A stretch of 54,407 nt of DNA from NCBI GenBank assembly GCA_044350215.1, contig JBILIB010000001.1, forward strand, positions 1-54,407. Direction: 5' to 3'. The notes under the pieces are model-generated. The model worked only from the letters and a program-made list of their open reading frames with translations, was not told where the DNA came from and ran no database searches. Each line of letters opens with the position of its first letter. Positions within the stretch are counted from its first letter, which is position 1. The stretch is from Acidimicrobiales bacterium (GTDB lineage: Bacteria; Actinomycetota; Acidimicrobiia; Acidimicrobiales; Acidimicrobilacustridaceae). Positions 9,602 to 52,725 of this stretch are shown piece by piece. A program made the position numbers and the translations under genes.

Positions 9602-9616
9602 GCCAGGGAAGGAAAG

Positions 9617-9688
9617 CTCGGGGGCAGGGACTCGAACCCCGAATGACTGGACCAAAACCAGCCGTGTTGCCAATTACACCACCCCCGA
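9617..9688 (-). tRNA. tRNA-Gln (TTG)
   Basis: TCGGGGG...CCCCCGA acceptor stem, TGGTGTAATTGG D arm, TTG anticodon, GTTCGAGTC T loop; CCA not encoded. Confidence 0.96.
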
Positions 9689-37287: not shown

Positions 37288-37719
37288 ATGGAAGCTTCTT
37301 CGCTGCGGTTCGCAGCCGCCGCCCGATCACTTGGCGAGGTGGCGCGCGCCGCAGGGCTTGTGGTGCCAAGTTTCCGCAGTCCGCCGCGGCTCGAGGGCGT
37401 TGATCGCACCATGAAGCGCCAGGTCGATGGTGCTGGGGTCGAGGCTGTCACCGTGTCGGTGCGCATCAAAGGTCGGCCGTGGGTCTCGGTGCTGGCCGAC
37501 ATGATCGACGGCGTGCTTGTTGTCAACGCTCTCAGTGGTCCGACAGCGGGCGCAGCTCGCACAGTGATGTGGAGCGCGGTCGAGGCCGACGTCATGCGAG
37601 GTACTGACGTCGATGGCCAAGCGGGCCAACGGCAGCGACGCACGGCCCATGGGGTTGGCGGGCATACAGGGCGCCGGGGCCCCCAGCCTGCTGGCACGCC
37701 GCAGACCAAGGTTGCTTAG
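37288..37719 (+). CDS. Hypothetical protein
   Basis: MEASSLRFAAAARSL...FRSPPR...DRT...ADMIDGV; fills the gap to tRNA-Leu; host-like codons. Confidence 0.7.
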   Translation: MEASSLRFAAAARSLGEVARAAGLVVPSFRSPPRLEGVDRTMKRQVDGAGVEAVTVSVRIKGRPWVSVLADMIDGVLVVNALSGPTAGAARTVMWSAVEADVMRGTDVDGQAGQRQRRTAHGVGGHTGRRGPQPAGTPQTKVA

Positions 37720-37769
37720 GTCTCACGGCGTGCCGGGTCCGGGCGGGGCGGTACCGTTGTCCCATTCCA

Positions 37770-37856
37770 GCCCGGATGGCGGAATTGGCAGACGCAGGGG
37801 GCTTAAACCCCCCGGCCTTTCGGGGCTTGTGGGTTCAAATCCCACTCCGGGCACCA
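37770..37856 (+). tRNA. tRNA-Leu (TAA)
   Basis: GCCCGGA/TCCGGGC acceptor stem, GGGGG-CTTAAAC-CCCCC anticodon arm, long variable arm, GTTCAAATC, encoded CCA. Confidence 0.97.
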
Positions 37857-38048
37857 CGGACCTACATCTCTGCAGGAGAGTCAACTCGCACCACCGTGCC
37901 GGCGGGCAAAATTGTGCGCACTGTGTGAGCGGAGAGATCGGATTCAGCATGGTTTGAGGACGGATCTGTCCGTGTGGAAGCACGTGGAGTTGGCGTATCG
38001 GTGACGCCAATGAAGCAGTCTCAACACCTCGGCAATAACCTCGCCGCC

Positions 38049-38897
38049 GTGCGCACCAGACGGACCGACTTCATCACCTTCGGGGGTGGCAGATCGGGTT
38101 TCCCTCGCGCTGCGCGTCGTCTGGCCAGCGAGGCCAGGCGATCCGAGTTGTTCCAGACCTCCGAATCGATCACCCACAAGGACCTGTTCCGGGATCACCC
38201 GGACTTCGCCGCCCGTCACGCCTCGAGGCTCAATGCGGCCACGCGCGGTTTTGGCTACTGGTTGTGGAAGCCGTACCTCCTCGAAAGTGCACTGCGCGAG
38301 ACGTCGGCCGACTACCTGCTCTACCTCGACGCGGGGTGCGTGTTGAACCTTTCCAGTGCCCGCGCCCGGCAGCGACTCGACGAGTACCACGACATCGCCG
38401 ACCAGAACGGCCTTGCAGTGATGCAGATCCACCATCGGGAGCAAGTTTGGTGCAAGTCGGACACCATGGATCGGCTCGGACTCGATGAACCCGGTCGTTC
38501 CAGCGGTCAAATCCAGGGCGGGACCATCCTGATCAAACGCTCGTCTACCACACAGGACTTCGTGCGGACCTGGCTCGAAATCTCCGAAGAGGATGACTGT
38601 CGGTATCTGAACGACTCACCAAGCACCCGCCCCAATCATCCCGACTTTAAGGAACACCGACACGATCAGGCGATCCTGAGCTGTTTGTGCAAGGTGACGG
38701 GCATTGTCCCCATCGCTGATGAGACCTACTTCGCTCCCGACTGGGCGATCGGTGGCGCAGACCTGCCCATCTGGGCGGCCCGTCACCGCTGGGGAAGCCC
38801 TTTCCGGCCCGATGAGCCGTATTCACTCTCACATCGGGCTGAATGGTGTTTCGATCGGGCCGAGCAATGGTGGGCAGCTCACACGCGACAGGGCTGA
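38049..38897 (+). CDS. Putative glycosyltransferase-like protein (GYW.WKP / D.G / HRHDQ type)
   Basis: GYWLWKPY, YLDAG, EHRHDQAILS; TAACCT -10 7 nt before GTG 38049; codons look more C/G-ending than neighbours. Confidence 0.6.
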   Translation: MRTRRTDFITFGGGRSGFPRAARRLASEARRSELFQTSESITHKDLFRDHPDFAARHASRLNAATRGFGYWLWKPYLLESALRETSADYLLYLDAGCVLNLSSARARQRLDEYHDIADQNGLAVMQIHHREQVWCKSDTMDRLGLDEPGRSSGQIQGGTILIKRSSTTQDFVRTWLEISEEDDCRYLNDSPSTRPNHPDFKEHRHDQAILSCLCKVTGIVPIADETYFAPDWAIGGADLPIWAARHRWGSPFRPDEPYSLSHRAEWCFDRAEQWWAAHTRQG

Positions 38898-39001
38898 ACC
38901 ACGCACACCCCATCTTGCCCAGGAATCGTCGCCTTGGCCCCCATCGACCGCGGCGTGCTTCTCAAGGTGGTGGCCGATGCCCCCTCCCGAAGGCATCGCA
39001 T

Positions 39002-39481
39002 GACGTCGGCCCCGATACTGCGGATCCAAAGAACTTCACATGGGGCGCCGATCCCACGTTGGCCGGTCCAGATCTCAGTCGGGTGCCAGCGGCAATTGCG
39101 TCGGGAAACAGTGTTGGTTACACCGAGCGCCTTGATTATGTGTTTGTGCGCGGTGAGATCACGATCGTCAGTAGCAAGGTCGTAGGCAATTCTTGGCCGA
39201 CATGTATCTCCACTTGGTCATGTGGTGCGGATGCGCAGGTGTCGAACTCGGCCAAAGCTGCTGTTGCGCTCGGTGTTTCTGCACCAGATCAGGCCGTCTG
39301 TTTTGGGTCTGACCATGCTGCAGTAGTTGTAGTGGCGCAACTAGGAACGACAGCCTCGAGCTCAAGTAGTTCGCGGATTTGGTTTGTTGTTGCTGGAGTG
39401 TTCATTGTCGTGATCGTCGCGGCGATCGTTTGGGGTCTCGTGCATCGATCATCGGGTTCGCCTCCCATCGAATCGAAGTGA
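39002..39481 (+). pseudogene. 5'-truncated endonuclease/exonuclease/phosphatase (EEP) family gene with C-terminal TM
   Basis: FTWG, ERLDYVFVRG, SDHAAV and TM anchor present; N-terminal catalytic motifs and plausible start absent. Confidence 0.7.
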
Positions 39482-39533
39482 GCACGTTCACGAGACCTAT
39501 GTCGGTCACACGGTTCTGAAACCAACCGCAATG

Positions 39534-40649
39534 TCAGTTGAGTACTTCATCAAGTTCAACGAAGCGCCCCTCCTCGATGCTGCGATGGGCAGCAACACCG
39601 ACAGCGACCGAAGCGAGCCCGTCGCGCAAAGTCACCGCCGGTTCACTCTCCGAAAGAATCGCGTCGCGCAGAGCAACATGTTCAAGGTACGACGCACCGT
39701 GGTGCATGCCGATGTGGCGAATATCGGGGTCGGCAACGGGCTCTGTGCTCACGTTCCCGTAACCAGCGGATCGTCGGCCGATGCGAACGATTCCCTCTGA
39801 AACCAATGCCTCTACTTTTCCAAGATGACCGACGACGGAGATCTCCTGTTCGTTACGGCTCGCTTCGGCGAACATGCATAAATCAAGCATGGCTCGTGCT
39901 CCGTGTTCGTACTCGATGATCACGAACGCGTTGTCGAGAATGTCGGGAACTTCGCCGTCATAGCGCTCGTCGAGATGATTCACATCTTGCGCACCACTTG
40001 CCATGACGCGAACCGGTCGGTCGTCGACGAGGAGGTTCATGAGGTCGAAGAAGTGACAGCACTTCTCAACAAGCGTTCCGCCGGTATTGCGATTAAATCG
40101 GTTCCAGTCGCCGACCTTCATCAAGAACGGGAATCGGTGCTCACGGATAGCGACCATCTGCACTTGGCCAACGGTTCCGGCTCGAATCTCGGCCAGCACT
40201 CGTTGAGTCGGGGGCATGAACCGGTACTCGAGTCCCATCCAGATGACGCGACCGGGACGGTCGGTGGCCTCGGCGCGATCGATCGCGTCTTTGCAATGTT
40301 CGACGGTGGTACACAGCGGTTTCTCTACCAGTGCGTGTACACCGCTATCGAGTACGTCGAGCAGGACTTCGTGATGGGTGTGATTCGGTGATGCGATTAC
40401 CACGACATCGCAGAGTCCGGAATCGAGCAGTTCGCGATGATTACTGAACGAAGCCATGCGGGTGCCGGGATTCACGGCGGCCTGGGCTCGATCGATGCTT
40501 TCTAAATGGGGGTCGCTCACTGCCGTGACGATGGCACCTTCGAGATGTCCGATGTTGGCGATGTGCTCGCGTCCCATCATTCCCGCGCCAATGATTCCGT
40601 AGCGCAGGACCTCTCCGGGTTGGGTTCGGCCGTCGGCTATTTCCACCAT
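39534..40649 (-). CDS. sqgA: Gfo/Idh/MocA-fold protein, probable NAD+-dependent sulfoquinovosidase (GH188, SqgA-like)
   Basis: GAGMMG, EKP, LEYRFMP, EHRFPFLMKVGDWNRF, GGTLVEKCCHFFDL, HHGA match GH188 motifs as recalled; adjacent to smoB/smoC-like genes. Confidence 0.75.
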   Translation of the reverse strand: MVEIADGRTQPGEVLRYGIIGAGMMGREHIANIGHLEGAIVTAVSDPHLESIDRAQAAVNPGTRMASFSNHRELLDSGLCDVVVIASPNHTHHEVLLDVLDSGVHALVEKPLCTTVEHCKDAIDRAEATDRPGRVIWMGLEYRFMPPTQRVLAEIRAGTVGQVQMVAIREHRFPFLMKVGDWNRFNRNTGGTLVEKCCHFFDLMNLLVDDRPVRVMASGAQDVNHLDERYDGEVPDILDNAFVIIEYEHGARAMLDLCMFAEASRNEQEISVVGHLGKVEALVSEGIVRIGRRSAGYGNVSTEPVADPDIRHIGMHHGASYLEHVALRDAILSESEPAVTLRDGLASVAVGVAAHRSIEEGRFVELDEVLN

Positions 40650-40667
40650 GGAACTAGCCTACGGCCC
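40650..40667. promoter_or_regulatory. Bidirectional leaderless promoter with overlapping -10 elements
   Basis: TAGCCTA (40655-40661) reads TAGCCT on + (7 nt before GTG 40668) and TAGGCT on - (6 nt before ATG 40649). Confidence 0.75.
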
Positions 40668-41579
40668 GTGATTGATGTGACTTCTCCGCTGCCGCTTCCA
40701 GGGTCGCGCTTAATTGCTGGGCGCTCGGTTGGACCTTTGGGATTCGGCTGTTGGCGTCTGACCACCTCGTCAACTGAAGAAGCGTCCCGTCTTGTGGAAG
40801 GAGCCGTTGACCTCGGGTGCACACTGATCGACACTGCCGATGTCTATGGGCTTGATTGGGGCGGCACAGGATGGGGCACGTGTGAGGAGCGCCTTGGTGC
40901 GGTACTCGCCGCCCGATCGGGATTGCGTGAACGTATGTTTCTCGTCACGAAGGGAGGGATCGTTCCCGGAGTTCCTTACGACAGCAGTGGTGACTACTTG
41001 ACTTCAGCTTGTGAAGCGTCGTTGCGTCGTTTAGGGGTCGACCACGTTGATCTCTTCATGGTCCATCGACCTGACCTTCTTTCGCATCCGGCCGATGTGG
41101 CCGAAACGCTGCAGTCGTTGCGCGACCGTGGACTCATAAGTGCGATCGGCGTTTCGAACCACACCGTCGCGCAGGTTGAAGCGCTTCAGTCCTACTTGGA
41201 CGAACCGGTAGCGGCGATTCAACCTGAGTTCTCGGTGGCTGCACTTGGAGCGATGCGCGATGGAGTCCTTGATCAAGCGATGCAGCATCGATCTGCCGTG
41301 CTCTCATGGAGCCCCTTGGCTGGTGGACGAGTACTAACCGGAGAAGGACTCCGTCCGGAGTTGATTGAAGTCCTCGATCGCATCGCCGCTACCCACGATG
41401 TCGACCGCACGTCGATAGCGCTGGCGTTCGTGCTCGCTCATCCTGCCCAGCCCATTGCACTTCTGGGTACGCAGCGACTCGATCGGATCGAAGCAGCACG
41501 ACAGGCACTCAGTATTTCTCTGTCACGAGCCGAGTGGTTTTCGATCATCGAAGCGAGCGAGGGAGTGCCACTTCCTTGA
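40668..41579 (+). CDS. smoB: Aldo/keto reductase, probable 6-oxo-glucose reductase (SmoB-like)
   Basis: GCWR, DTADVYG, TKGG, HRPD, GVSN, WSPLAGG; coupled to smoC-like gene. Confidence 0.72.
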   Translation: MIDVTSPLPLPGSRLIAGRSVGPLGFGCWRLTTSSTEEASRLVEGAVDLGCTLIDTADVYGLDWGGTGWGTCEERLGAVLAARSGLRERMFLVTKGGIVPGVPYDSSGDYLTSACEASLRRLGVDHVDLFMVHRPDLLSHPADVAETLQSLRDRGLISAIGVSNHTVAQVEALQSYLDEPVAAIQPEFSVAALGAMRDGVLDQAMQHRSAVLSWSPLAGGRVLTGEGLRPELIEVLDRIAATHDVDRTSIALAFVLAHPAQPIALLGTQRLDRIEAARQALSISLSRAEWFSIIEASEGVPLP

Positions 41580-42634
41580 CCCGCACCGGTGCACCGCTCG
41601 AGATGGCATGGTTCGCCGCGTTGTGCGATGACGACTATGAACAACTCGGTGTCGTTGACGAGCAACTCCTTAGTAGCCCAGAACATTGTGGCGACATCGT
41701 TCGTGCTGCCGATCAGTGCGGATTCGATTCGATCCTGATGCCATCGGGCTATGCGCTCGGTATCGATACGGTCACCTTCACTGCGGCGATTGCGTCATCG
41801 ACCCGAAACATCCGTCCGATCGTGGCCATACGCATGGGTGAGGTCTGGGTACCGACGCTGGCCCGTCAGTTGGCCACCCTCGACCACCTGCTTGATGGAC
41901 GGTTGATCGTCAATGTGATCTCGAGCGAAATGCCGGGCGAGTCACTCGACGCCGAATCTCGCTATCAGCGCACCGTTGAGCACATGACTGCACTGCGTGC
42001 GTTGCTCGATGGTGGGCGGTTGCAGGTCGACGGAGAGTGGCTTGGTATCGATATTGATCCACCGCGTCTAACCACGGTGTCACGACAGTGTCCACCGCTG
42101 TACTTCGGGGGCCTCTCGGAGGCGGCCCGCGAAGTCGCCGCTCGCGGCGCGGACGTGTACCTCATGTGGCCCGACACGTATGAACAAATTGCCGAAACTG
42201 TTGCTGATCTCCGTGGCCGAGCAGCGCGTCACGATCGCGAGTTGAGCTTCGGCTATCGCGTGCATGTGGTGGTTCGACCCACCGAAGCCGAAGCTCGAGT
42301 CGCTGCCGACTACCTCGTTGCTGCCCTCGATCCGGCAATCGGAGACGCCATTCGTTCGCGTTCGCTTGACAGCACGTCAGTAGGAGTCAAAGCGCAGGCG
42401 GCGTTGCGCCTTGGCAGCGATGAAGACGGCTATGCCGAGCCGAACCTTTGGACCGGCATCGGACGCGCTCGCAGTGGTTGTGGTGCCGCCATTGTCGGAT
42501 CACCAAGGCAGGTGGCAGACAAGATCGAGTCCTATCGCGACCTCGGCATCGATACGTTCATCTTGTCCGGATACCCGCACCTTGATGAATGTCGCCGATT
42601 CGCCGAACTGGTGCTGCCGCTTCTGAGGGCGTGA
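41576..42634 (+). CDS. smoC: LLM flavin-dependent monooxygenase, probable sulfoquinovose monooxygenase (SmoC-like)
   Basis: WFAALCDDDY..LGV, NVISS, LYFGG, DVYLMWP, LWTGIGRARSGCGAA, FILSGYPHLDE match Agrobacterium SmoC as recalled; TTGA overlap and GGGAG RBS. Confidence 0.8.
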   Translation: MTRTGAPLEMAWFAALCDDDYEQLGVVDEQLLSSPEHCGDIVRAADQCGFDSILMPSGYALGIDTVTFTAAIASSTRNIRPIVAIRMGEVWVPTLARQLATLDHLLDGRLIVNVISSEMPGESLDAESRYQRTVEHMTALRALLDGGRLQVDGEWLGIDIDPPRLTTVSRQCPPLYFGGLSEAAREVAARGADVYLMWPDTYEQIAETVADLRGRAARHDRELSFGYRVHVVVRPTEAEARVAADYLVAALDPAIGDAIRSRSLDSTSVGVKAQAALRLGSDEDGYAEPNLWTGIGRARSGCGAAIVGSPRQVADKIESYRDLGIDTFILSGYPHLDECRRFAELVLPLLRA

Positions 42635-42723
42635 GGCTTGAATAGTCCCGAGATTCGAGATTGCCTCGGTTGACCAATCAGTGGGACTCGCGACTGGCTT
42701 CAAAGACATACCTCAGTGACGTC

Positions 42724-42847
42724 AGTTGATCAGCGGGTCTCGCGGGAGTCCGAGGATGCGCTCGCCGATCTGGTTGCGCTTGATCTCTGAAGTTCCGCCG
42801 GCAATCGCCAACGCACGATGCATGAGTTGCAATGTGCCACCCATGAA
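42724..42847. repeat. 124-bp perfect direct repeat, copy 1 (orphan 3' end of acyl-CoA dehydrogenase)
   Basis: Identical base for base to 50478-50601; stop TGA here versus TAA in the intact gene. Confidence 0.97.
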
Positions 42848-42874
42848 CCAAGGCTGCTTAGGGCCTTTCCCCGT

Positions 42875-42915
42875 GGCCTTTCGTGACTTGCGGATTCAAA
42901 TTCCGCTCCGGGCAC
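42875..42915 (+). repeat. Diverged 3' fragment of tRNA-Leu (att-like relic)
   Basis: 35/41 identical to 37814-37854 without gaps; T stem GCGGA/TCCGC versus GTGGG/CCCAC. Confidence 0.88.
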
Positions 42916-42924
42916 AACGAGTAG

Positions 42925-45900
42925 TTAGGCAGTGGTTTCGGCTGCAGTGTCTGCCGAGGGCGTCTCGGGGTATTCCTCGGTTGCGACATCTCGGCGCGGC
43001 AGAAGTGTCACGAGGGCACACAGCAACGCTATGGCTGCGAGTGCGCTCACGGGGTATGACGCGGCACCCCACAGGTTTGAGGGGTAATCAACGATCCTCT
43101 TGCCGAGAACGACGAGTACGCCAGCGGCACTCATTGAGAGAAAAGCGATTGGTGCGAGCCACGAGCGACGATGATTTCGTAGCCACCACGCCGGTAGAAG
43201 AAGCACTGCGCCAATGCCGGTGCACCACACAGCGCCGATAGCGACACCAGCGATGAGAAGCGCTTTCGCTGGTTGTCCTTCGTTGAGTGCGTCGAGTTGG
43301 CGTTTCTTTCGGTCCGGCCAGAGAGCCATCACGAAAACTGCGAGCAACGTGAATAATCCAAAGGCGGTGCCGAGTTTGAAGATGCGGTCAGGTGCGAAAC
43401 GCAGATCCACCGTGCCGCCATCGCCCTCGGGCACGATGAACGCCAGGCGCCAGCCGTCAATCTTGAGAGGTGTGAGTGTTGTTCCATTGAGAGTTGCCTC
43501 CCATCCTTCATTGAATGCTTCGTTGACGACGAGAAGCCCTTCGGTTCCACCCGCCACCGTGACCGTGCGGTCGTTTGTTCCCCAATGATTGACCTTGAGT
43601 GTGCGTGGCAATCCAGTTGGCGCTGCCATCGTCGGTGAATTGCCAAGCACAAGTTGATCGACGGTAACGAGAGATGAACCGCTTGATGTGTCGAGAAGGG
43701 TCACACCCGCATTGAGAGCCACGTTTTCGGTTCCGCACGGAACAAGATCGAAGGGAGTGCCGTCGATGAGTGTGCCTGCCGTTGTGGCGATTGAATAGGA
43801 AAGTGCGGCTGAACCGATAGCAACTTTGGGCCCTGTATCGCAGGCAGCGACGTACGGCACCGAGCGATCGATGGGTCCGGGATAGAGATCGGAAAGAGCC
43901 GTTACGTCAATTGAGCCGAAACCCATCACTCGTGAAGAGGTTCTGTCGTCCAAGGGGACGGGCGCGTAATTGAGGCGGAGAGTGAGAGAGCTCGTCGTGA
44001 TTGGTTCGAACGTGACGGTGCCGTCGGCGGCGACTGGGGCGCTGCGGGCTTCCGTGCCCGCGTAGATCACAATGTCTTGTGGCATTGCTTCGTCGTTGCC
44101 ACGGACAAGGACGAGCGATGAAATCGATCGAGGTTCGCTCCATCTCATGTCGATGAGTGAACTACCTCCAACTGCAGTGATGTCGTTTCCGCTGCGCCAA
44201 TGAGTGGTGGTATCGCCATCAACGAGGTTGCGTGGGCTAACCCTGGGATTTTCGCCCCAGGTGGAGTCTGCAGTGACTGAGAAATCTGGTGTGCTTCCGA
44301 GCCAGCGGAGAAGTGGCTGTCCCTTCGTCGATGAGGCTGAAGCAAGGAGTCGGAACTTGCCGTCTTTAGGGACCGTGAATTTTCGAGCGATCTGAGATTC
44401 AGAATTGAGAGAAACGAGGGGTGATGTGGCGGCGCGGTTACGGGTGAATACCCATGCAGGGTCAGGAGACCCCGGAGTCGAGAACTGATCGTTGAGTTGA
44501 TTGGGTACGACGAGGCGGGGGGTGACCGGCGTTCCTGGAAGAGTCAGCTCACGAATCCCGATGACGTCGTCAATCGCGAAATAGGAACTGCGGGCGATGG
44601 AAACTTTGACCGAACTCGTAATGCCGGGGACAACATTTAAAGGTTGCTTCACTTGAATTGGTAGCAGCGTGGTGGTCGCGTCGCCGGCGTCGGTGTGAAC
44701 GGTGACGTCAATGGGCGACAATGTTGCGTACGGGCCGATGTACAGCGCGGTTTCAATTTGATTCAGGAGTGTCGGCGTTGTGAATTTTGTCTCGACGAAG
44801 GGATCGACTGGTCCCCATGCATCGAATCCATTGACTTCGATCCGGCGCGGAACCCACCAGGTGTTCGCGTCGCCATCCAGAATTTTCGCCGGATCAAAGG
44901 CGGGGATATTGGCTACGAACATTCCTGGGCCAACGCTTGAGGCAGTGACTGACGAGAACCCGTCGAGTTCTTGGTAGGTGCGACTCGTCGGATCCTGCCC
45001 TGCAGGAACTACATCGCCCGCGAAGTCGTGGATGTAACTCTTGTTGTTGCGATTGAGTCCGTAGTCGATCGTCGATGCTTGGTTGCCATCGGTGATGATC
45101 CACTGCGATGGGAGGAGCGGAGAGGGAACGCGATCGCGGGAAAGTAGGTACGGGCGATCCCCGAATACGGACGAAGGTACGGAAAGTGTCGATGCGATAT
45201 CGCCGCTCAACCACGTGGTTGACGAAGCCGCGTAGGTGGCCGCAACAGCGCCACCGGGCACCGAGTAAATATCTATTTGTTGAAGGTCTCCAAAGCCATA
45301 TCCACGATCACCGAATGCGGCAGTCAGCGTGAACCCACTCGCAGTCATTGCGTTTCGAACTGTCTCAGGCGGCGGAGCGCCGTAGTCCTCTGAACGTTGG
45401 TCGTTGGGAACGACGACTGCGGTGAATCCGCCGCGACGGAGATATTCCATTAGCCCCGTATCGCCGCCGCGTTCGATTGATGTTTCGGTGACATCGAGGT
45501 ATTCGACGATGTCGATACCGCTCAGAGGGGCCTGGCTGCGTGTTGCCCACGTGACATTTGATCCCCACTGGATGGGAATCTGCGCGGTGAAGCCCCAATC
45601 GAAATCAGCATCGGGAATGCCCGGGAGAACCAGCGTGCGGCCGGGTGAATTCTCTGACAGCCATGCGTTCGCTTCGACCCACGCTGCGGGGATTTCAGCG
45701 GCGCCAGGACCTCGAGTGAGAGAGTTTCTCCAAAGCGGCCACGATGCGCATGCGAGAACAACGATCGTGACTGCGGCGACACCCTGCTTCGCAATCTGGC
45801 GATTCTTTGCGTGATTGCCTTCAAGTATCCCGGCGAGGAGATGCGCGAGTCCAAACGCAAGTGGAAGCGCGATGAGTGGCTGAAATTTATAGACGTTGCG

Positions 45901-47001
45901 GAACGCGTTAAGAGCTCCATCGAGCAATGTCTGGTACTGCGTGGTTGCTGGATTCCCGAAGACGCCTCCGAAGCCACCACCAACTGCAGCGACCCCGAGT
46001 AAAAGACTTGTGACGAGGAACATTCGCTCGGGGAGTCGACGCCGCGCCAAACCTGCGAGGCCAGCGCCGGCAACAACGGCCGTCGCAAGGATTGGTATCG
46101 ATCGAAGGGAAAGTGCGAATCCAGCGGGGTTTGTAGCGCCGGGCAATCGTGAAACCCAGTCAGCGGTACCTCGAAGAACTTCGAAAAGTGAGGTTGGCCC
46201 CGTTGTGGTTCTTACCGACTCGGTGTACTGGAGCACATCGGGTCCGTATTTCCCGAAGAGGTAGAGGCCAACGAGCCACCACAGAGTGGCCATTGGTGCG
46301 GCGATAGCCCACCAGCGCAGCAGGCTTGCTCGACGCTGTCCCCGTGTACGCGTGAGCAGATAGAGAACTGGAACCGGAAGAACTGCGATGGTGACAGCCG
46401 CATTTGCACCACCTATGAGGGCGATAGCTATCGCCGAACGAGCGGCGGCCTTTCGTGTGGAACCAGTTTTGGAAGCGAGCACGAGCGGCAGCAATGCCCA
46501 AGGTAGGAATACCACTCCCATCGCGAACGGTGATTGCCATCCGACTCGAGAGAGGATGACGGGGGAGATTGCATAGGCAAATCCGGCAGCTATACGTGTC
46601 GATGGCCGCCCAATTTTGAACGCGTCGGCGAGACGGACGAATCCCCACAGTGCCAGCGCAATGAAGAAGTAAATGAAAAGTCGTTCACTGATCCACGGTG
46701 GGATGTGAAGTGCTTTCGCTATGCCAAACCAGAGGTCAAATGGAAACCAATAACCGTTCTGCTGAAATTGGATGGAACCCATATCCCAATAGGGATTCCA
46801 TAACTCGAATCCGCGTCCGACCATTGTGAATGGATCAAGGATCCGATCAAGACGCGTCAGGTAGACGATTTCGCCAAATCGCTGAGCGAATGCTCCGAAC
46901 AGGATGGGCAGGGTCGCAAGCGCGATCCACTTCGAGGGCGTGACCGATTCAGTCAACGACGGTTCTTGCGTGGCTTTAGGGGCCGAGGTCAAAGCGGTCA
47001 T
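42925..47001 (-). CDS. AftD/DUF3367-family GT-C glycosyltransferase with discoidin-like (F5/8, CBM32) modules
   Basis: WNP..G.IQFQQNGYWFP, WISER, GGANAAVT, FRNVYKF, two DG...T.W modules, NEGWEA, DGWR; many TM. Start 47001 or 47046. Confidence 0.85.
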   Translation of the reverse strand: MTALTSAPKATQEPSLTESVTPSKWIALATLPILFGAFAQRFGEIVYLTRLDRILDPFTMVGRGFELWNPYWDMGSIQFQQNGYWFPFDLWFGIAKALHIPPWISERLFIYFFIALALWGFVRLADAFKIGRPSTRIAAGFAYAISPVILSRVGWQSPFAMGVVFLPWALLPLVLASKTGSTRKAAARSAIAIALIGGANAAVTIAVLPVPVLYLLTRTRGQRRASLLRWWAIAAPMATLWWLVGLYLFGKYGPDVLQYTESVRTTTGPTSLFEVLRGTADWVSRLPGATNPAGFALSLRSIPILATAVVAGAGLAGLARRRLPERMFLVTSLLLGVAAVGGGFGGVFGNPATTQYQTLLDGALNAFRNVYKFQPLIALPLAFGLAHLLAGILEGNHAKNRQIAKQGVAAVTIVVLACASWPLWRNSLTRGPGAAEIPAAWVEANAWLSENSPGRTLVLPGIPDADFDWGFTAQIPIQWGSNVTWATRSQAPLSGIDIVEYLDVTETSIERGGDTGLMEYLRRGGFTAVVVPNDQRSEDYGAPPPETVRNAMTASGFTLTAAFGDRGYGFGDLQQIDIYSVPGGAVAATYAASSTTWLSGDIASTLSVPSSVFGDRPYLLSRDRVPSPLLPSQWIITDGNQASTIDYGLNRNNKSYIHDFAGDVVPAGQDPTSRTYQELDGFSSVTASSVGPGMFVANIPAFDPAKILDGDANTWWVPRRIEVNGFDAWGPVDPFVETKFTTPTLLNQIETALYIGPYATLSPIDVTVHTDAGDATTTLLPIQVKQPLNVVPGITSSVKVSIARSSYFAIDDVIGIRELTLPGTPVTPRLVVPNQLNDQFSTPGSPDPAWVFTRNRAATSPLVSLNSESQIARKFTVPKDGKFRLLASASSTKGQPLLRWLGSTPDFSVTADSTWGENPRVSPRNLVDGDTTTHWRSGNDITAVGGSSLIDMRWSEPRSISSLVLVRGNDEAMPQDIVIYAGTEARSAPVAADGTVTFEPITTSSLTLRLNYAPVPLDDRTSSRVMGFGSIDVTALSDLYPGPIDRSVPYVAACDTGPKVAIGSAALSYSIATTAGTLIDGTPFDLVPCGTENVALNAGVTLLDTSSGSSLVTVDQLVLGNSPTMAAPTGLPRTLKVNHWGTNDRTVTVAGGTEGLLVVNEAFNEGWEATLNGTTLTPLKIDGWRLAFIVPEGDGGTVDLRFAPDRIFKLGTAFGLFTLLAVFVMALWPDRKKRQLDALNEGQPAKALLIAGVAIGAVWCTGIGAVLLLPAWWLRNHRRSWLAPIAFLSMSAAGVLVVLGKRIVDYPSNLWGAASYPVSALAAIALLCALVTLLPRRDVATEEYPETPSADTAAETTA

Positions 47002-47023
47002 CGGTTCTGGACCCGGAACCTGG

Positions 47024-48079
47024 TCATTGTTCTCGAACTGTCTCATGAAGTACGGCCTCGAACATGTCGACCGCACGATCCCACGTAAAGATGGATGCTC
47101 TGTTTTTCGCCGCAGTCGCCATTTGGGCTCGCTGGCTGCCGTTGGCTGCCAGCGAGATCCATTGGGCAGCAAAGTCATTCTCGTCGGTGGCGAGGTATCC
47201 AGTGAGTCCGTTGGTGACGGAATCGCGTACCCCGTCAACGTCGAAGGCGAGGGTGGGGACGGATGCGGCGGCGGCTTCCATGACGACAGTGCCCCAACCT
47301 TCGTGGTGCGCTGGATGAATCAAGAGCCATGCTTGTGCGAGCTCGCTGCGTTTGCGGTTTTCGTCTACCCATCCGGTGAACTCCACATCGGGGCCCGCCA
47401 TGGAGCGGAGGTCGTTGAGTTCTGGCCCGTCGCCCACGATCACGAGCTGGCCGCCGGTGATCGGTCGCACGGTTTGCCACATTTTGAGGGCCAGTTCCAC
47501 TCGTTTGTGGGGAACGAGTCTGCTGAGGACGAGGAACCTTGGTTCCGTCGAAGGTGATGGCTCAAGTGGATCGAAAGCGAGTCCCATCTCAATTGTTGAG
47601 ATCTGGCTGGGTGTAATGCCGAGGTCGACCAATCCGCGTGTTGTCGATGGTGAGACGGAAATGAACGGCGCACGTCGGTACACGCGGGGCATGAACCAGC
47701 CTTCGAGCCATCTTCCGATCGCAGCGACTGACTTGGGAAATTGCATGCCCCATTGCTCGGTATGGACGTGGTGAACCAAGCCGATGACGGGTTTCCGCTG
47801 CCATAGCGGAGAGAAGAAAGGAATCCCGTTTTCGACATCGATGACGGCGTCGGCTCCCTTGCAGTGTCGAAAAAATGCAAATGGCGCAAACAGATACTGC
47901 GAATAGTTTCCACCGATGCTTGTGCTGCGATAGTTATGTTTTCCCGACGGGCCACCGTGAAGAAGCTGAACCTCGTGTCCGCGTTCGGTGAGCCTCGACG
48001 CAAGTTGATCGATGACGACTTCGGATCCGCCAGCTTGGGGGTGGGCGGTGTCGCGCCACGCGAGAAAAACAATCCGCAT
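47024..48079 (-). CDS. Glycosyltransferase family 4
   Basis: WRD..HP.AGGSE, RLVPHKR, EGWGTVVMEA. Confidence 0.92.
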   Translation of the reverse strand: MRIVFLAWRDTAHPQAGGSEVVIDQLASRLTERGHEVQLLHGGPSGKHNYRSTSIGGNYSQYLFAPFAFFRHCKGADAVIDVENGIPFFSPLWQRKPVIGLVHHVHTEQWGMQFPKSVAAIGRWLEGWFMPRVYRRAPFISVSPSTTRGLVDLGITPSQISTIEMGLAFDPLEPSPSTEPRFLVLSRLVPHKRVELALKMWQTVRPITGGQLVIVGDGPELNDLRSMAGPDVEFTGWVDENRKRSELAQAWLLIHPAHHEGWGTVVMEAAAASVPTLAFDVDGVRDSVTNGLTGYLATDENDFAAQWISLAANGSQRAQMATAAKNRASIFTWDRAVDMFEAVLHETVREQ

Positions 48080-48094
48080 GTGTTCGTCGAGTCT

Positions 48095-48868
48095 CTAGTG
48101 TTTTTTCGAAGAGGTGATTGGGATGGGCACCAAATGCCCGCTTCGGGAGGCTAGGCCCATAACCCTTGCGGATCGGGTGCGAATGCGAATCGGAATGAGA
48201 TCGATTGCTGTACGCAGGGAATCGCGCACGGGGCGGACCGCCGAGTGGTCACTTGCCACCCACAAAACGGGAACCTCATCGATTGAGTAGCCGAGAGCGA
48301 CTCCAAGGCGCAGGATTTCAGGATCGAACGCGAACCGATTGTTTTCCGAAAGTGAGAAGAGCAACCGAGCAACGTCCCCACGAAAGGCCTTGAATCCGCA
48401 TTGGGAGTCGTGAATGTCGAGGCCAGTTGACCAACGCATCAGTTGATTGAAGGTTCGACCCATGAGGGTCCGAAGCAGGTTTGAGCGTTCCACAATTGAG
48501 CCGGGCACGCTACGTGAGCCGATGACGATGTCGAACCTTGAGAGTCGCTGAAGAAAATCATCGATGTGTTCGAGTGAGGTTGAGAGGTCCGCGTCCATGA
48601 AGACGACTGCGTCTGATGTTGAGCGTGCAACCCCCGCTCGCAAAGCCGCTCCCTTGCCAAGGTTTCTCGGTAGTCGAACTAGCTGAATGCGATCGTCGCC
48701 TTGAGCGAGGTGTTCAGCAAGACCCGCAGAGTCGTCGGTGCTGCCGTCGTCGACAAGAATGATTTCGGTGTGGGAATCTGGGAAGCGGCGGGTTAGTTCA
48801 GTGAGCGTGGTCGGCAACGCACGCGCTTCGTTGAACATCGGGATGATGATGCTTCTCTCGGCCCCCAC
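48095..48868 (-). CDS. GT2 polyprenyl/dolichyl-phosphate glycosyltransferase-like
   Basis: IPMFNE, VDDGSTD, GKG, MDAD, GSR, DSQCGFK, FD.E; TAGGCT -10 7 nt before GTG 48868. Confidence 0.9.
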   Translation of the reverse strand: MGAERSIIIPMFNEARALPTTLTELTRRFPDSHTEIILVDDGSTDDSAGLAEHLAQGDDRIQLVRLPRNLGKGAALRAGVARSTSDAVVFMDADLSTSLEHIDDFLQRLSRFDIVIGSRSVPGSIVERSNLLRTLMGRTFNQLMRWSTGLDIHDSQCGFKAFRGDVARLLFSLSENNRFAFDPEILRLGVALGYSIDEVPVLWVASDHSAVRPVRDSLRTAIDLIPIRIRTRSARVMGLASRSGHLVPIPITSSKKH

Positions 48869-48941
48869 CCTCAATAGCCTAAGTGAATTTCCCTACAGGG
48901 TCGGGGGCATCTTTAAGTGGGTGGCCATGTGGACGAGAGGG

Positions 48942-49553
48942 CTACTCGGGCATGGGTAGGGCCGTCACAAGGATTGAGTGATGGACAACATTGAAACGGT
49001 CGGTTTCGATGACCTGGAATTCTTTTGCGATGGCACTTTCAAGCTGGTCTGAGGTCCGTGGGAAGTGTCCGGCATCGAGTTTCCAGAAGACCCTCGAAAA
49101 CCAGCGTCGTTTACGCCACACACCGTCAAGAAAAATGAATGATCCGCCTGGTTTCAACACGCGATTGGCTTCAGCTAATGACACGGGCCATATCGAATCA
49201 TCGAGGTGGTGAGAAACGCATTGCATCAACACCACGTCAGCGGTGTTGTCGGGGAGTGGAAGCGCCGAAGCATCACCCACAAGTCGCTCAATTGGCTTCT
49301 CTGTCGGCTCGACCTTGAGAACTCTCGCATCTGGATCGATGCTGTAGTAGGTCCAACCTGCGGGCCACATAGATCGACTGCGAGCAGTTCCGCCACCGAT
49401 GTCAACGACTGTGCCGATGGGCAGAGCAGCGAAGGTACGAGCAGCGACTGGACTCAGGTGGGCTTCGACACGACTCCGACCGAGTAGTCGTGTCTGGAAC
49501 TCATTCACTCGGGGATGAGAGACAATTCTTCCAAGGACGTCGCGAAATGACAT
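48942..49553 (-). CDS. Class I SAM-dependent methyltransferase
   Basis: VDIGGGT, GDASALP, HH, RVLKPGG; TATTCT -10 6 nt upstream. Confidence 0.9.
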   Translation of the reverse strand: MSFRDVLGRIVSHPRVNEFQTRLLGRSRVEAHLSPVAARTFAALPIGTVVDIGGGTARSRSMWPAGWTYYSIDPDARVLKVEPTEKPIERLVGDASALPLPDNTADVVLMQCVSHHLDDSIWPVSLAEANRVLKPGGSFIFLDGVWRKRRWFSRVFWKLDAGHFPRTSDQLESAIAKEFQVIETDRFNVVHHSILVTALPMPE

Positions 49554-49670
49554 GCGCAGAGAATAGGGGTGGAGATCCGCTAGGTTCGGGACGTCTTTCC
49601 CCGGGTGGGAGACAAAGAACTTGGGGCATGATCTGCAATGGGTGATTCAAACGGTGAGTACCAGCGGGGC

Positions 49671-50444
49671 ATGCCCACGAAGGCCCTTTCAGCAGTGACA
49701 TCGCTTGTCCCAAAGTCCTTCTTTCACCCTGTAGTGGCGCGGCTCCACCTTCGGGCCGAGCCCGAGATGCGCGGAATCATTGAGCGCTGTGACCCCACGG
49801 GAACCGCAATTGACGTTGGAACTTGGTATGGACCCTGGACGTATTGGCTTTCGAAGCGCGTGCGTGACGTGCAGTCGTTTGAGCCGAACCCAAAAGTGGC
49901 GGCGGTGCTGCGTCAAGGTGTGGCTTCAAACGTGACTGTGCACGAATGCGCGGTTTCTGACGTTGAAGGAACTGCAGAACTCGTGCTTCAAGATCTAAGT
50001 GTCGGCTCTGAGGGAACGGCAACAATTGTTCCGGGGGTCGAAGGCGCAGGTTCACACTCGGTTCGCACAAAGCGGATTGACGACATGGGATTTACCGACG
50101 TGAGGTTCATCAAGATCGACGTCGAAGGCCATGAACTCGCGGTCCTCAATGGCGCGTGGGAAACCATTGAGCGTGATCATCCAGTTCTCTTCGTCGAGCT
50201 TGAAGAGCGGATGAGCAATATCAACGGAACCATCGCAATGATGGCCGATCGTGGGTACGAAGCTCGGTTCGTGATGAACGATGTTTGGACATCATCCACA
50301 TCAATGGACCTTGCCGAATGGCAGCGCGAGTTCACCCGCACTCACGACACGCAGAGCTATATGCAAACCGTCGTGAAAGTGAATGGGTACGTGAACGATG
50401 TCGCGTTTGTCCATCCCCAAAGCACCTGGGCACCTTGGGACTGA
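49671..50444 (+). CDS. FkbM family methyltransferase
   Basis: IDVG..YG, FEPNP, IKIDVEGHEL.VL.G. Start 49671 or 49638. Confidence 0.9.
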   Translation: MPTKALSAVTSLVPKSFFHPVVARLHLRAEPEMRGIIERCDPTGTAIDVGTWYGPWTYWLSKRVRDVQSFEPNPKVAAVLRQGVASNVTVHECAVSDVEGTAELVLQDLSVGSEGTATIVPGVEGAGSHSVRTKRIDDMGFTDVRFIKIDVEGHELAVLNGAWETIERDHPVLFVELEERMSNINGTIAMMADRGYEARFVMNDVWTSSTSMDLAEWQREFTRTHDTQSYMQTVVKVNGYVNDVAFVHPQSTWAPWD

Positions 50445-50475
50445 ACGAGACGTCTTGAGTCTCTGTTGTTGCTGA

Positions 50476-52632
50476 TTAGTTGATCAGCGGGTCTCGCGGG
50501 AGTCCGAGGATGCGCTCGCCGATCTGGTTGCGCTTGATCTCTGAAGTTCCGCCGGCAATCGCCAACGCACGATGCATGAGTTGCAATGTGCCACCCATGA
50601 ATCCTTCGTCTTCGAGGTAGACGCCAACAGGGCCAGCGAGTTCGAAAAGAATTGCCGCTGCTTCTTCTGCGTTTTCGGTGAGCAGCAACTTCGTGACCGC
50701 GCCCTCTGGTCCGGGTTCACCACCGGCGACGGCTCGTTGTGCGCTGCGCACATTGAGGGTTTCAGCCGCTTGTGATCGAGCAGTAGCACGACCGATGCGA
50801 CCAGCGCCGCCAGAGAGTCGTTCGGGGTTTGCGTCGTATGGCGCGAGGAACGATGCCGGAGGGATGACCATGGCTCCGTCGCCGCTACCGATGCTCACGC
50901 TTTCGTTACCGAGCGTGCCACGAGCAACAGTCCAGCCGCCGTCGACGGGGCCGACGACATCGTCATCGGGAACGAAGACATCGTTGAAGAACACCTCGTT
51001 GAATTCGGCGCCTCCGTTGACCATGCGCAGCGGGCGAATCTCGACGCCTTCTGCATGCATGTCGACGACCATGCATGTGATGCCCTGATGCTTTGGCACA
51101 TCAGGGTTGGTGCGCACAGTGATGAGGCCAAACGATGCAAGGTGCGCGCCAGTTGTCCATACCTTCTGTCCGTTGATGAGCCAGCCGCCGTCTACTCGCG
51201 TGGCCTTGGTCTTGACGCCAGCGGCATCGGAACCGGCATCGGGCTCGCTGAACAGCTGACACCAGATGAGTTCCTGATTGAGTGCTGGCATGATCCAGCG
51301 GGCGAGCTGGTCGTCATTTGAATGCTGCGTGAGTGTGAGGATGACCCAGCCGGTGATCTGGTAGCCGGGACGCTTTACGCCGGCACGGTTGAACTCTTCT
51401 TCAATGACGAGCTGTTCAACTGCACTGGCAGCACGACCCCACGGCTTTGGCCAATGGGGAACCGCGTAGCCCGATGCGACAAGCGCACGAACGCGTTCAT
51501 TGCCATCAAGATCCTTGACCGCTTCGATTGCAGCACGAGCCTCGGCGCGGAATGCTTCGGCTTCGGGTGGGAGTTCCACGGCCCGGACGATCTTGACGTC
51601 CTTGCGGAGAAGGTTCGCGATATCGATGGCGGCAGCTTCGGCATCTACCAGCGCCTCAATTGCAAGTGCGCGGCGCAGGTAGAGATGAGCGTCGTGTTCC
51701 CATGTGAATCCGATGCCACCGTGCACCTGAATGTTCATCTGCGCATTGCGGTCGCCGGCATGCGATGCAGTGGTCGCTGCCATTGCCGCGGCGTAGGAGA
51801 ACTGATCGCCACCGGCTGCTGCGGAGCGAGCGGCATCCCAAACTTCAGCGGTTGCGATTTCTGTTTCAACAAGCATGTTGGCGCAGTGATGCTTCACAGC
51901 CTGGAACATGGCGATTGCTCGGCCGAACTGCTGACGCTCGCGGGCGTAGTCGGCTGCCATGTCGGTTGTTGCACGAGCCACACCGGTTGCTTCAGCGGCC
52001 AGAAGGAGTCGTGCATAATCAATAAGCGACTGAGCGCCGCCGGGAACGATGATCGCGTCAGCATTGTCGAACGTGACCTGCGCGCTGCGACGGGTGGGGT
52101 CGAGGTTGGTCATCGTGCGAATGTCGATGCCCTTTGCCGTTGCTTCCACGATTGCAAGGTCGTTTCCAACCGTGACGAGGATGAGGTTCGCGAGCGTTGC
52201 GCTGAGCACGCTGCGAGCGGTGCCTGTGATGGTGTTTGACGTTGTGGAAAGTGCGTCGCCGAATCCGATTCCAGCAACCACGCTTCCGTCAGCGAGTCCG
52301 GGGAGCAACTTGGCGGCAACATCGGCTGGGGCGGCAGCAACAATCGCGGCGCTTGCGATGACGGTGGACACAAACGGGCCGGGAGCAAGGCCCGCTCCCA
52401 TTTGCTCAACCACAACAACAAGTTCGGGCATTCCGAAGCCGGAACCGCCGTGCTCTTCAGGAATGTGAAGACCGAGCCATCCGAGTTCGGCAAGCGCGGA
52501 CCAGAAAGAGGGCATTGCCTCGTCCTGGGCTTCGAGCAGTTCGCGAGCTGCGTCACGTGATGCATGGCGTTCGAGGAAATCGGCAGTGACGTCAGCCAGG
52601 GTGCGGTGGTCTTCGGTGATGGCGATCGACAT
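50476..52632 (-). CDS. Two-domain (fused) acyl-CoA dehydrogenase
   Basis: R.QFG, QAVKH, HGGIGFTWEH; WCQLFSEPDAGSD, NGQKVWT, GGTSEIKRNQIGER; GGAG RBS. Confidence 0.93.
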   Translation of the reverse strand: MSIAITEDHRTLADVTADFLERHASRDAARELLEAQDEAMPSFWSALAELGWLGLHIPEEHGGSGFGMPELVVVVEQMGAGLAPGPFVSTVIASAAIVAAAPADVAAKLLPGLADGSVVAGIGFGDALSTTSNTITGTARSVLSATLANLILVTVGNDLAIVEATAKGIDIRTMTNLDPTRRSAQVTFDNADAIIVPGGAQSLIDYARLLLAAEATGVARATTDMAADYARERQQFGRAIAMFQAVKHHCANMLVETEIATAEVWDAARSAAAGGDQFSYAAAMAATTASHAGDRNAQMNIQVHGGIGFTWEHDAHLYLRRALAIEALVDAEAAAIDIANLLRKDVKIVRAVELPPEAEAFRAEARAAIEAVKDLDGNERVRALVASGYAVPHWPKPWGRAASAVEQLVIEEEFNRAGVKRPGYQITGWVILTLTQHSNDDQLARWIMPALNQELIWCQLFSEPDAGSDAAGVKTKATRVDGGWLINGQKVWTTGAHLASFGLITVRTNPDVPKHQGITCMVVDMHAEGVEIRPLRMVNGGAEFNEVFFNDVFVPDDDVVGPVDGGWTVARGTLGNESVSIGSGDGAMVIPPASFLAPYDANPERLSGGAGRIGRATARSQAAETLNVRSAQRAVAGGEPGPEGAVTKLLLTENAEEAAAILFELAGPVGVYLEDEGFMGGTLQLMHRALAIAGGTSEIKRNQIGERILGLPRDPLIN
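50478..50601. repeat. 124-bp perfect direct repeat, copy 2 (3' end of intact gene)
   Basis: Identical to 42724-42847. Confidence 0.97.
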
Positions 52633-52725
52633 TCGGGTGCGCTCCAAAGAGGGAAGTGTGACTGCGGCAGCGTACCCACCCATCGGCGGTTAGGCCTATG
52701 TGGGCGGAGGGGTCAGAATGGCGCC

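What the first reader, a model, noticed from the sequence alone, without database searches (positions are those of the whole stretch)
37770..50601. Integrase-less cassette stacking: the internal junction duplicates both island anchors
Seen: the order is tRNA-Leu | cassette A | exact 124-bp copy of the acyl-CoA dehydrogenase 3' end | 27 bp | tRNA-Leu 3' fragment | cassette B | intact dehydrogenase. Each cassette is therefore bounded by tRNA-Leu sequence on the left and the dehydrogenase 3' end on the right. No integrase or transposase is in the window. Inference: two alternative fillings of one variable slot now sit in tandem. A circle [tRNA'-cassette-fadE'] entering by single crossover would give this. 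Recombination between the 124-bp repeats would delete B with the gene intact, and recombination between the tRNA copies would delete A.
Basis: partly seen in the sequence, partly recalled or inferred. Interest (0 to 1): 0.85.

Follow-up and report, generated by a model that had tools for sequence, protein, structure and literature searches.

The report
Leftover gene tail doubles cassette slot
In a lake actinobacterium, two gene cassettes that relatives carry one at a time sit side by side, joined by a leftover copy of the neighbouring gene's tail, which likely lets ordinary homologous recombination add or swap cassettes without any integrase.

Summary
The order is real. The slot between tRNA-Leu(TAA) and the acyl-CoA dehydrogenase gene (fadE) is variable. 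Of 33 genus genomes, 18 have both anchors on one contig: empty, B-type, A-type or other fillings, none A+B.

Corrections:
- Run contigs show the A-side copy is 98 bp exact plus 26 bp with four synonymous changes, so the 124-bp exactness is likely an assembly effect.
- The tRNA fragment is decayed (33/39).
- The linker matches the end of the gene upstream of the tRNA (15/16).

The junction therefore fuses both outer flanks of the slot: old on the tRNA side, fresh on the fadE side. Two metagenome contigs show a second stack at this anchor, with a ~231-bp orphan tail, fresh outside and decayed inside.

Best reading (0.55): an old head-to-tail join made a two-slot island, and the orphan tail likely serves as a RecA landing pad. 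Loss of B is plausible; loss of A through the tRNA copies is not. No contig spans the repeat, so phasing is unproven. This is a variant of replacement islands and long-target-duplication insertions. The scan noted similar, not identical, stacks in other genomes.

The parts
37705..37720 (+). 3' end of the hypothetical ORF upstream of the tRNA (stop at 37717-37719); source of the junction linker
   Evidence: 15/16 match to 42847-42862, unique in the assembly at <=1 mismatch; 10 relatives match the linker at 8-11/16 only
37770..37856 (+). tRNA-Leu(TAA), left anchor; the only TAA-Leu tRNA in the assembly
   Evidence: ARAGORN
37857..42721 (.). Cassette A: 307-aa unknown ORF, 212-aa fragment-like ORF, Gfo/Idh/MocA oxidoreductase (-), aldo/keto reductase (+), SsuD-like luciferase-family monooxygenase (+)
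   Evidence: Pfam/NCBIfam; lies directly against an intact fadE in G047 at 88-98% identity
42722..42847 (-). Orphan fadE tail (41 codons + TGA): inner 98 bp (42750-42847) identical to the intact gene; outer part is A-specific in run contigs (4 synonymous changes)
42847..42862 (+). Join point: 16-bp remnant of the upstream ORF's 3' end fused to the fadE tail
   Evidence: present inside an unbroken 7716-bp contig in X1 and a 460-bp contig in X2
42863..42919 (+). Decayed tRNA-Leu 3' half (42/51; 33/39 in 42877-42915). T-stem kept by two paired changes, one of which turns the G-C pair closing the T-loop into A-T
   Evidence: nhmmer E 8.8e-6
42920..50475 (.). Cassette B: AftD-like arabinofuranosyltransferase (1437 aa), GT4, GT2, class I methyltransferase (all -), FkbM methyltransferase (+); predicted surface-glycan module
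   Evidence: Pfam; sole filling of the slot in G011, G019, G020, G042 at 7558-7564 bp
50476..52683 (-). Intact two-module acyl-CoA dehydrogenase (fadE), right anchor; its last 124 bp are the second repeat copy

Best explanation
Two alternative cassettes of one variable slot sit in tandem, separated by a junction that fuses the slot's two outer flanks; this junction is likely an old head-to-tail join whose orphan fadE tail is likely reused by RecA-type homologous recombination to add or swap cassettes without an integrase. Step 1 (shown): the tRNA-Leu/fadE interval is a replaceable slot across the genus. Step 2 (inferred): an illegitimate join in this lineage fused fadE +124 to the end of the gene upstream of the tRNA. 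It could have arisen as a tandem duplication, a one-sided (homology-facilitated illegitimate) uptake of DNA, or a reinserted circle; the sequence cannot tell these apart. Step 3 (shown as sequence state): the spare tRNA lost its 5' half and decayed, which removes the homology needed to delete A. Step 4 (inferred): later recombination paired the orphan tail with a live fadE end, so the cassette now upstream (A) sits with its own fresh, synonymous-variant tail. Prediction: B can still loop out through the 98 bp and leave tRNA-A-fadE.
For: Slot alleles in 18 of 33 genus genomes with both anchors on one contig: 6 empty (77-94 bp), 2 at ~234 bp, 7 B-type, G007 glycoside hydrolase + B, G047 X+Y+A, G009 GT4+GT2. 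Cassette genes cross species lines: G020 B genes 93-96% against flanking core 77-81%; G047 Y vs G005 94.7%. The linker is this lineage's own upstream-gene end; from general knowledge, an integrase att site would not carry sequence from 50 bp upstream of the tRNA. Age mismatch: 7 changes in 55 bp of linker + tRNA copy vs 0 in 117 non-silent or inner fadE positions (p 0.0003; 0.003 if paired stem changes count once). Independent second case in L051/L052 (99.9% alike over 3895 bp): B-variant | orphan fadE tail | 2.1-kb cassette | intact fadE. Its outer 69 bp are fresh (65/69 to its own gene, 68/69 to the B-linked tail of G042) and the next ~140 bp are decayed with indels (nhmmer E 1.1e-8). Tail lengths differ (124, ~231, possibly 255 in G009), so there is no fixed cut. 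recA, comEC and dprA are present in the genome. A and B lie at similar contig depth in 8 runs (weak, the tool warns depth is not copy number).
Against: No read or contig spans A-tail-linker, so the tandem rests on the window's assembly plus both separate joins and similar depth. The window's own letters at 42731-42749 disagree with run contigs, so this assembly is imperfect exactly here. Only 2 orphan-tail cases were found (1 of 29 slot interiors besides this genome; 0 same-orientation orphan tails in 80 more fadE loci), so the feature is rare. No strain was seen with the same join and a different upstream cassette, which is the direct test of reuse. Gene conversion between the repeats could also keep the 98 bp fresh; 98-bp identical windows occur at low rate even between species (0-50 of ~2057). 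Integrase-like tRNA fragments do exist in this genus: G047's starts at the anticodon arm, and three tRNA-Met fragments on contig C183 start at one base. Competence genes do not prove transformation.
Confidence: 0.55

Rival explanations
1. B exists or existed as a circle [linker-tRNA'-B-fadE tail] that enters and leaves the fadE end by single crossover in the 98 bp. The decayed tRNA is a relic of the circle's origin, and each cycle refreshes the repeat.
For: The tail pattern (A-type outer end beside A, B-type beside B, identical inner 98 bp) is what a single crossover gives. One 897-bp contig in X10 joins 50477 back to 42724.
Against: The join was seen in 1 of 8 runs, at depth 4.5, in short-word contigs where lost side branches give the same path. 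B encodes no replication, partition or recombination family. The junction pattern has 0 matches in viral contigs.
Confidence: 0.2
2. The tRNA fragment is an old attachment-site scar from a tyrosine-integrase element (integrase lost or acting in trans). A separate, recent one-sided recombination then placed A with its fadE tail next to that scar, and the 16-bp match is coincidence or a decayed tRNA 5' part.
For: The fragment starts near the anticodon arm, as in G047. Decayed same-start tRNA-Met fragments lie on C183. The linker can also be aligned to the tRNA at 10/14 with a 6-bp gap. Additive tRNA islands with such repeats are described in Alteromonas and Actinomarinales (PMC4898812, PMC7771536; passages).
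Against: The 15/16 match to the upstream gene end is unique in the genome and lineage-specific. No PF00589 match lies at this slot in 34 genomes. The tRNA 3' pattern has 0 matches in viral contigs. L051 has an orphan tail with no tRNA fragment.
Confidence: 0.15
3. The tandem is an assembly path that strings together an A-only chromosome and a separate B-bearing molecule through the shared repeat.
For: No contig spans the repeat, and the window's copy lost four real differences.
Against: The tail-to-linker join exists in contigs of X1, X2 and X10, and a mix of A-only and B-only strains would not contain it. The X1 contig runs unbroken 42818-50533, with no branch from an intact tRNA into B. Depths of A and B are alike across 2020-2024 runs.
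Confidence: 0.1

Closest known systems
Replacement flexible genomic islands / minimal mobile elements (PMC4033161, PMC3787668; passages read)
   Same: Different gene sets between the same conserved flanks, no integrase, synonymous differences at the border, surface-glycan genes in B, exchange between species.
   Different: There the incoming cluster replaces the old one. Here two fillings are stacked, and remnants of both flanks lie between them.
Insertion with long target duplication (PMC2853133; passages read)
   Same: Insert under 20 kb (7.75 kb) flanked by a direct repeat over 30 bp, variable repeat length, no mobile-element gene, repeat overlapping a gene's 3' end.
   Different: Described for restriction-modification genes; B has none. 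Here the insert also begins with a remnant of the opposite flank, and the two sides of the join differ in age.
Additive tRNA islands of Alteromonas and Ca. Actinomarinales; tycheposon islands (PMC4898812, PMC7771536, 10.1101/2020.12.28.424599; passages read)
   Same: Cassettes stacked behind a tRNA with a partial tRNA between them, often without a resident integrase; G047 looks exactly like this.
   Different: The junction here also holds a protein-gene tail from the far flank and 16 bp from upstream of the tRNA.
HFIR-built arrays with orphan 3' gene ends (V. cholerae T6SS, Rhs; PMC5361080) and transformation-made merodiploids (PMC3784515); passages read
   Same: Stacking by one homologous anchor plus one illegitimate join leaves orphan 3' gene pieces; duplication joins can be created and spread by transformation.
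   Different: Those are effector-immunity or IS-repeat systems. Here the orphan is the tail of a flanking metabolic gene, and the cargo is whole accessory operons.
e14 / phage 21 insertion into the icd 3' end (recalled, no call)
   Same: Intact gene with one tail allele and a displaced tail with synonymous differences on the other side of the insert.
   Different: That system needs an integrase and a fixed crossover. Here none is near, and the tail lengths differ.

Membership tests
Replacement island / minimal mobile element | Different gene content between the same conserved flanking genes | tested here: met
   18 of 33 genomes, fillings 77 bp to 9.4 kb
Replacement island / minimal mobile element | No integrase or transposase at the locus | tested here: met
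   transposases checked by ORF scan only
Replacement island / minimal mobile element | Synonymous differences concentrated at the border | tested here: met
   4 synonymous changes + stop in the outer 28 bp, 0 in the next 98; small sample
Replacement island / minimal mobile element | Incoming cassette replaces the resident one, flanks stay single | tested here: not met
   window and L051/L052 keep two cassettes and duplicate the flank
Additive tRNA-integrase island | Partial tRNA repeat downstream of the cassette | tested here: met
   82% over 51 bp; 86% over 58 bp in G047
Additive tRNA-integrase island | Integrase at or able to act on the site | tested here: inconclusive
   none at the slot in 34 genomes; own genome 83% complete; some relatives have extra tyrosine recombinases elsewhere
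Additive tRNA-integrase island | Repeat limited to the tRNA 3' part, no DNA from upstream of the tRNA | tested here: not met
   16-bp remnant of the upstream gene end
Insertion with long target duplication | Direct repeat >30 bp around an insert <20 kb with no mobile-element genes | tested here: met
   124 bp (98 exact), 7754-bp spacing
Insertion with long target duplication | Allele lacking the insert with one copy of the repeat | tested here: met
   G047: A directly against intact fadE; a sister species, not the same species
Insertion with long target duplication | Insert carries restriction-modification genes | tested here: not met
   no such family in B
Integrase elements that replace a gene's 3' end (e14/phage 21 type; recalled) | Fixed crossover position in the gene | tested here: not met
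   tails of 124 and ~231 bp, possibly 255; later erosion of a longer tail not excluded
HFIR-built arrays | Formation by uptake of linear DNA with one anchor, RecA-dependent | not testable with these tools
   recA, comEC, dprA present; the process was not observed

The most novel reading that the evidence does not exclude
A dead copy of a flanking core gene's tail acts as a reusable, enzyme-free attachment site. One accidental join turns a one-slot replacement island into a stackable two-slot island, the join travels with the downstream cassette, and it lets that cassette add itself behind whatever cassette a recipient already has. This happened at least twice independently at the same gene in one freshwater genus.
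Probability: 0.3. Interest if true: 0.65.

Novelty: new variant of a known kind. Interest (0 to 1): 0.42.

Why it matters
How integrase-poor, streamlined aquatic bacteria grow their variable islands is still argued: replacement by homologous recombination, or addition by transient integrases. This locus shows a concrete bridge between the two, with datable scars (old join, fresh tail) in two independent stacks at one gene. It also makes simple predictions: B should loop out, A should not, and the join should occur with other upstream cassettes. The ingredients are all known, so the gain is a clear natural example rather than a new machine.

Tried and rejected
Viral contigs: 0 matches for the tRNA 3' pattern and 0 for the junction pattern; exact-match scans, weak evidence.

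Earlier scan notes near this locus: none.

Linker as a recurring regulatory motif: rejected, since only the two sites match at <=1 mismatch.

Folding of the junction: not better than shuffles (z 0.18); only the T-arm hairpin persists. The idea that this hairpin is kept as a barrier for the convergent aftD transcript is untested.

Orphan tails in 80 fadE loci from other genomes: two loci had extra hits, both in the opposite orientation and partial, read as paralogues.

Two fadE tails in G001 and in G023 end at contig edges and were not counted as orphans. G009's 255-bp tail breaks off 34 bp before a contig end and is only tentative.

My first alignment of the L052 inner tail used lax scoring (132 against a random maximum of 130); I relied on nhmmer instead.

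Low-share runs X19, X22 and X24 were laid to look for A-only or B-only populations. Both cassettes were patchily covered, and holes prove nothing.

Three of the five metagenome hits (L050, L053, L054) repeat arrangements already seen in genus genomes and were not counted again.

15 of 33 genus genomes could not be scored for the slot (anchors on different contigs, missing, or not adjacent).

Seven paper searches showed no description of this locus or of an orphan flank tail reused as a landing pad. The library lacks most subscription papers, and I read passages only, no supplements. Passages of 10.64898/2026.04.03.716425 and PMC12381374 added nothing on mechanism.
Full report
Setting. The window is the whole of contig C205 of a 2.2-Mb, 218-contig, 83%-complete genome. 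All 24 runs that hold the junction region are lake-water metagenomes from 2020-2024. Record titles of the closest fadE relatives (96-99% amino-acid identity) mostly read Acidimicrobiales, Acidimicrobiia or Actinomycetota, and one Ca. Microthrix. The host is therefore a freshwater acidimicrobial actinobacterium.

What is there. ARAGORN finds tRNA-Leu(TAA) at 37770-37856. A 124-nt perfect repeat lies at 42724-42847 and 50478-50601 and encodes the last 41 residues of a 735-aa acyl-CoA dehydrogenase, here called fadE. Cassette A holds two unassigned ORFs, a Gfo/Idh/MocA oxidoreductase, an aldo/keto reductase and an SsuD-like monooxygenase. Cassette B holds an AftD-like arabinofuranosyltransferase, GT4, GT2 and two methyltransferases. 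No integrase or transposase family was found among 111 ORFs scanned. The genome has one tyrosine recombinase elsewhere and no serine recombinase, and it has recA, comEC and dprA.

Three corrections to the junction. First, contigs that run from A into the repeat carry four changes in its outer 26 bp in runs X1, X2 and X4, at full depth; X22 shows four differences over the same stretch. All four are synonymous and the stop codon differs, so the A-side tail is a different fadE allele at its tip and identical for the inner 98 bp. The window's 124-bp exactness is probably an assembly effect; a strain with fuller conversion is not excluded. Second, the tRNA fragment is 42/51 identical, with paired changes that keep the T-stem but alter the pair closing the T-loop. 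Third, 42847-42862 matches the last codons of the ORF upstream of the tRNA at 15/16, uniquely in the genome, and matches the same place in 10 relatives at only 8-11/16. The junction is thus fadE tail, upstream-gene end, tRNA 3' half: the two outer flanks of the slot joined head to tail, with most of the spare tRNA deleted.

Is the tandem real? Both joins exist in independent runs: A into the tail, and tail into linker into B, the latter inside an unbroken 7716-bp contig in X1. A and B have similar depth in all 8 runs laid, which is weak evidence by the tool's own warning. No contig spans the 98 bp, so the phase rests on the window's assembly. One contig in X10 joins the end of B to its start; this could be a circle or a short-word artefact at depth 4.5, and it was not seen in the other 7 runs.

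The slot in relatives. Of 33 other genus genomes, 18 have both anchors on one contig: 6 empty (77-94 bp), 2 with ~234 bp, 7 B-type, one glycoside hydrolase + B, one GT4+GT2, and G047 with two more cassettes, an internal 58-bp tRNA fragment and then A against an intact fadE. None has A+B. Cassette genes move between species: in G020 the B genes are 93-96% identical to the window while the flanks are 77-81%.

A second stack. The one metagenome scan gave 5 loci. Three repeat known arrangements. L051 and L052 show B-variant | orphan fadE tail | a new 2.1-kb cassette (605-aa ORF, no Pfam or NCBIfam family) | intact fadE. The orphan's outer 69 bp are fresh and match the B-linked tail of G042 at 68/69; the next ~140 bp are a decayed fadE with indels (E 1.1e-8 among 29 slot interiors, 180 kb). 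No tRNA fragment lies there. These two contigs are 99.9% alike and count as one event.

Mechanism. In both stacks the join is old and the tail next to the upstream cassette is fresh. In the window, 7 of 55 linker and tRNA positions have changed against 0 of 117 non-silent or inner fadE positions (p 0.0003-0.003). One recent crossover by a new circle does not give this. The simplest account is an old illegitimate join of the flanks, decay of the useless tRNA copy, and later homologous pairing of the orphan tail with a live fadE end. Whether that later step swapped the upstream cassette or added the downstream one cannot be told from sequence, and gene conversion could mimic part of it. B remains deletable through 98 perfect bases, giving the G047-like state. 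A is effectively locked, since the tRNA copies share at most 10 perfect bases; the usual need of RecA for longer perfect matches is recalled knowledge. The slot variation, the junction anatomy and the age mismatch are shown; the join's origin and the reuse are inferred.

Comparison with the known. The slot behaves as a replacement island or minimal mobile element (PMC4033161, PMC3787668) but fails the 'replaces' criterion. B meets the geometric criteria of insertion with long target duplication but has no restriction-modification genes (PMC2853133). G047 and the C183 tRNA-Met fragments look like ordinary additive tRNA islands (PMC4898812, PMC7771536, 10.1101/2020.12.28.424599), so integrases may also visit this genus. 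Orphan 3' gene ends from one-sided recombination are described for T6SS and Rhs arrays (PMC5361080), and transformation can create and spread duplication joins (PMC3784515). I read passages of these papers only. Seven searches showed no account of this combination. Earlier notes of this scan describe gene-tail stacks with a fixed cut beside an integrase and integrase-less tRNA cassettes in other genomes; these are unchecked.

Verdict. A real, partly mis-described feature and a new variant of known island dynamics. Interest 0.42. The boldest reading, an orphan tail acting as a portable enzyme-free attachment site, has about 0.3 probability.

Noticed in passing
own genome contig C183: 9257-9276, 15756-15817, 16987-17047: Three tRNA-Met(CAT) fragments (20 bp exact; 81%; 87%) all starting at the same base of the tRNA, in a region with predicted glycosyltransferase-like ORFs. 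The intact tRNA is on C195, which has two further 3' fragments just downstream.
   Followed up: partly
L032:822-4950 (G047): tRNA-Leu | MerR + sulfate permease | 58-bp tRNA fragment | DUF418 gene | cassette A. The DUF418 unit is 94.7% identical to one directly behind the same tRNA in the distant G005.
   Followed up: partly
L019:8176-11349 (G006); L022 (G017): The gfo-akr-monooxygenase trio of cassette A lies upstream of the hypothetical gene and tRNA in G006, and between FkbM and a glycoside hydrolase in G017, so sub-cassettes are reshuffled.
   Followed up: partly
window:37700-37745: The region upstream of the tRNA differs from the closest species and resembles the more distant G019, a small mosaic patch at the left flank.
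   Followed up: no
L034, L032, L020, L046, L047, L048: Several relatives also carry insertions or different sequence between the hypothetical gene and the tRNA, so both sides of the tRNA vary.
   Followed up: no
window:38843-39481: Fragment-like ORF; the matching region in G047 is shorter and interrupted by stops. Probably a decaying gene.
   Followed up: partly
window:23736-32849: Molybdopterin dehydrogenase cluster with CoxE-, CoxG- and XdhC-like accessory genes.
   Followed up: no
window:9496-9543: Short 13-bp-period repeat next to tRNA-Gln(TTG) at 9616-9688.
   Followed up: no
L055:1-34 (G009): A 255-bp fadE tail breaks into a small hairpin-like sequence at the contig end and differs from the fadE on another contig of that genome; possible third orphan or a second strain.
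   Followed up: partly
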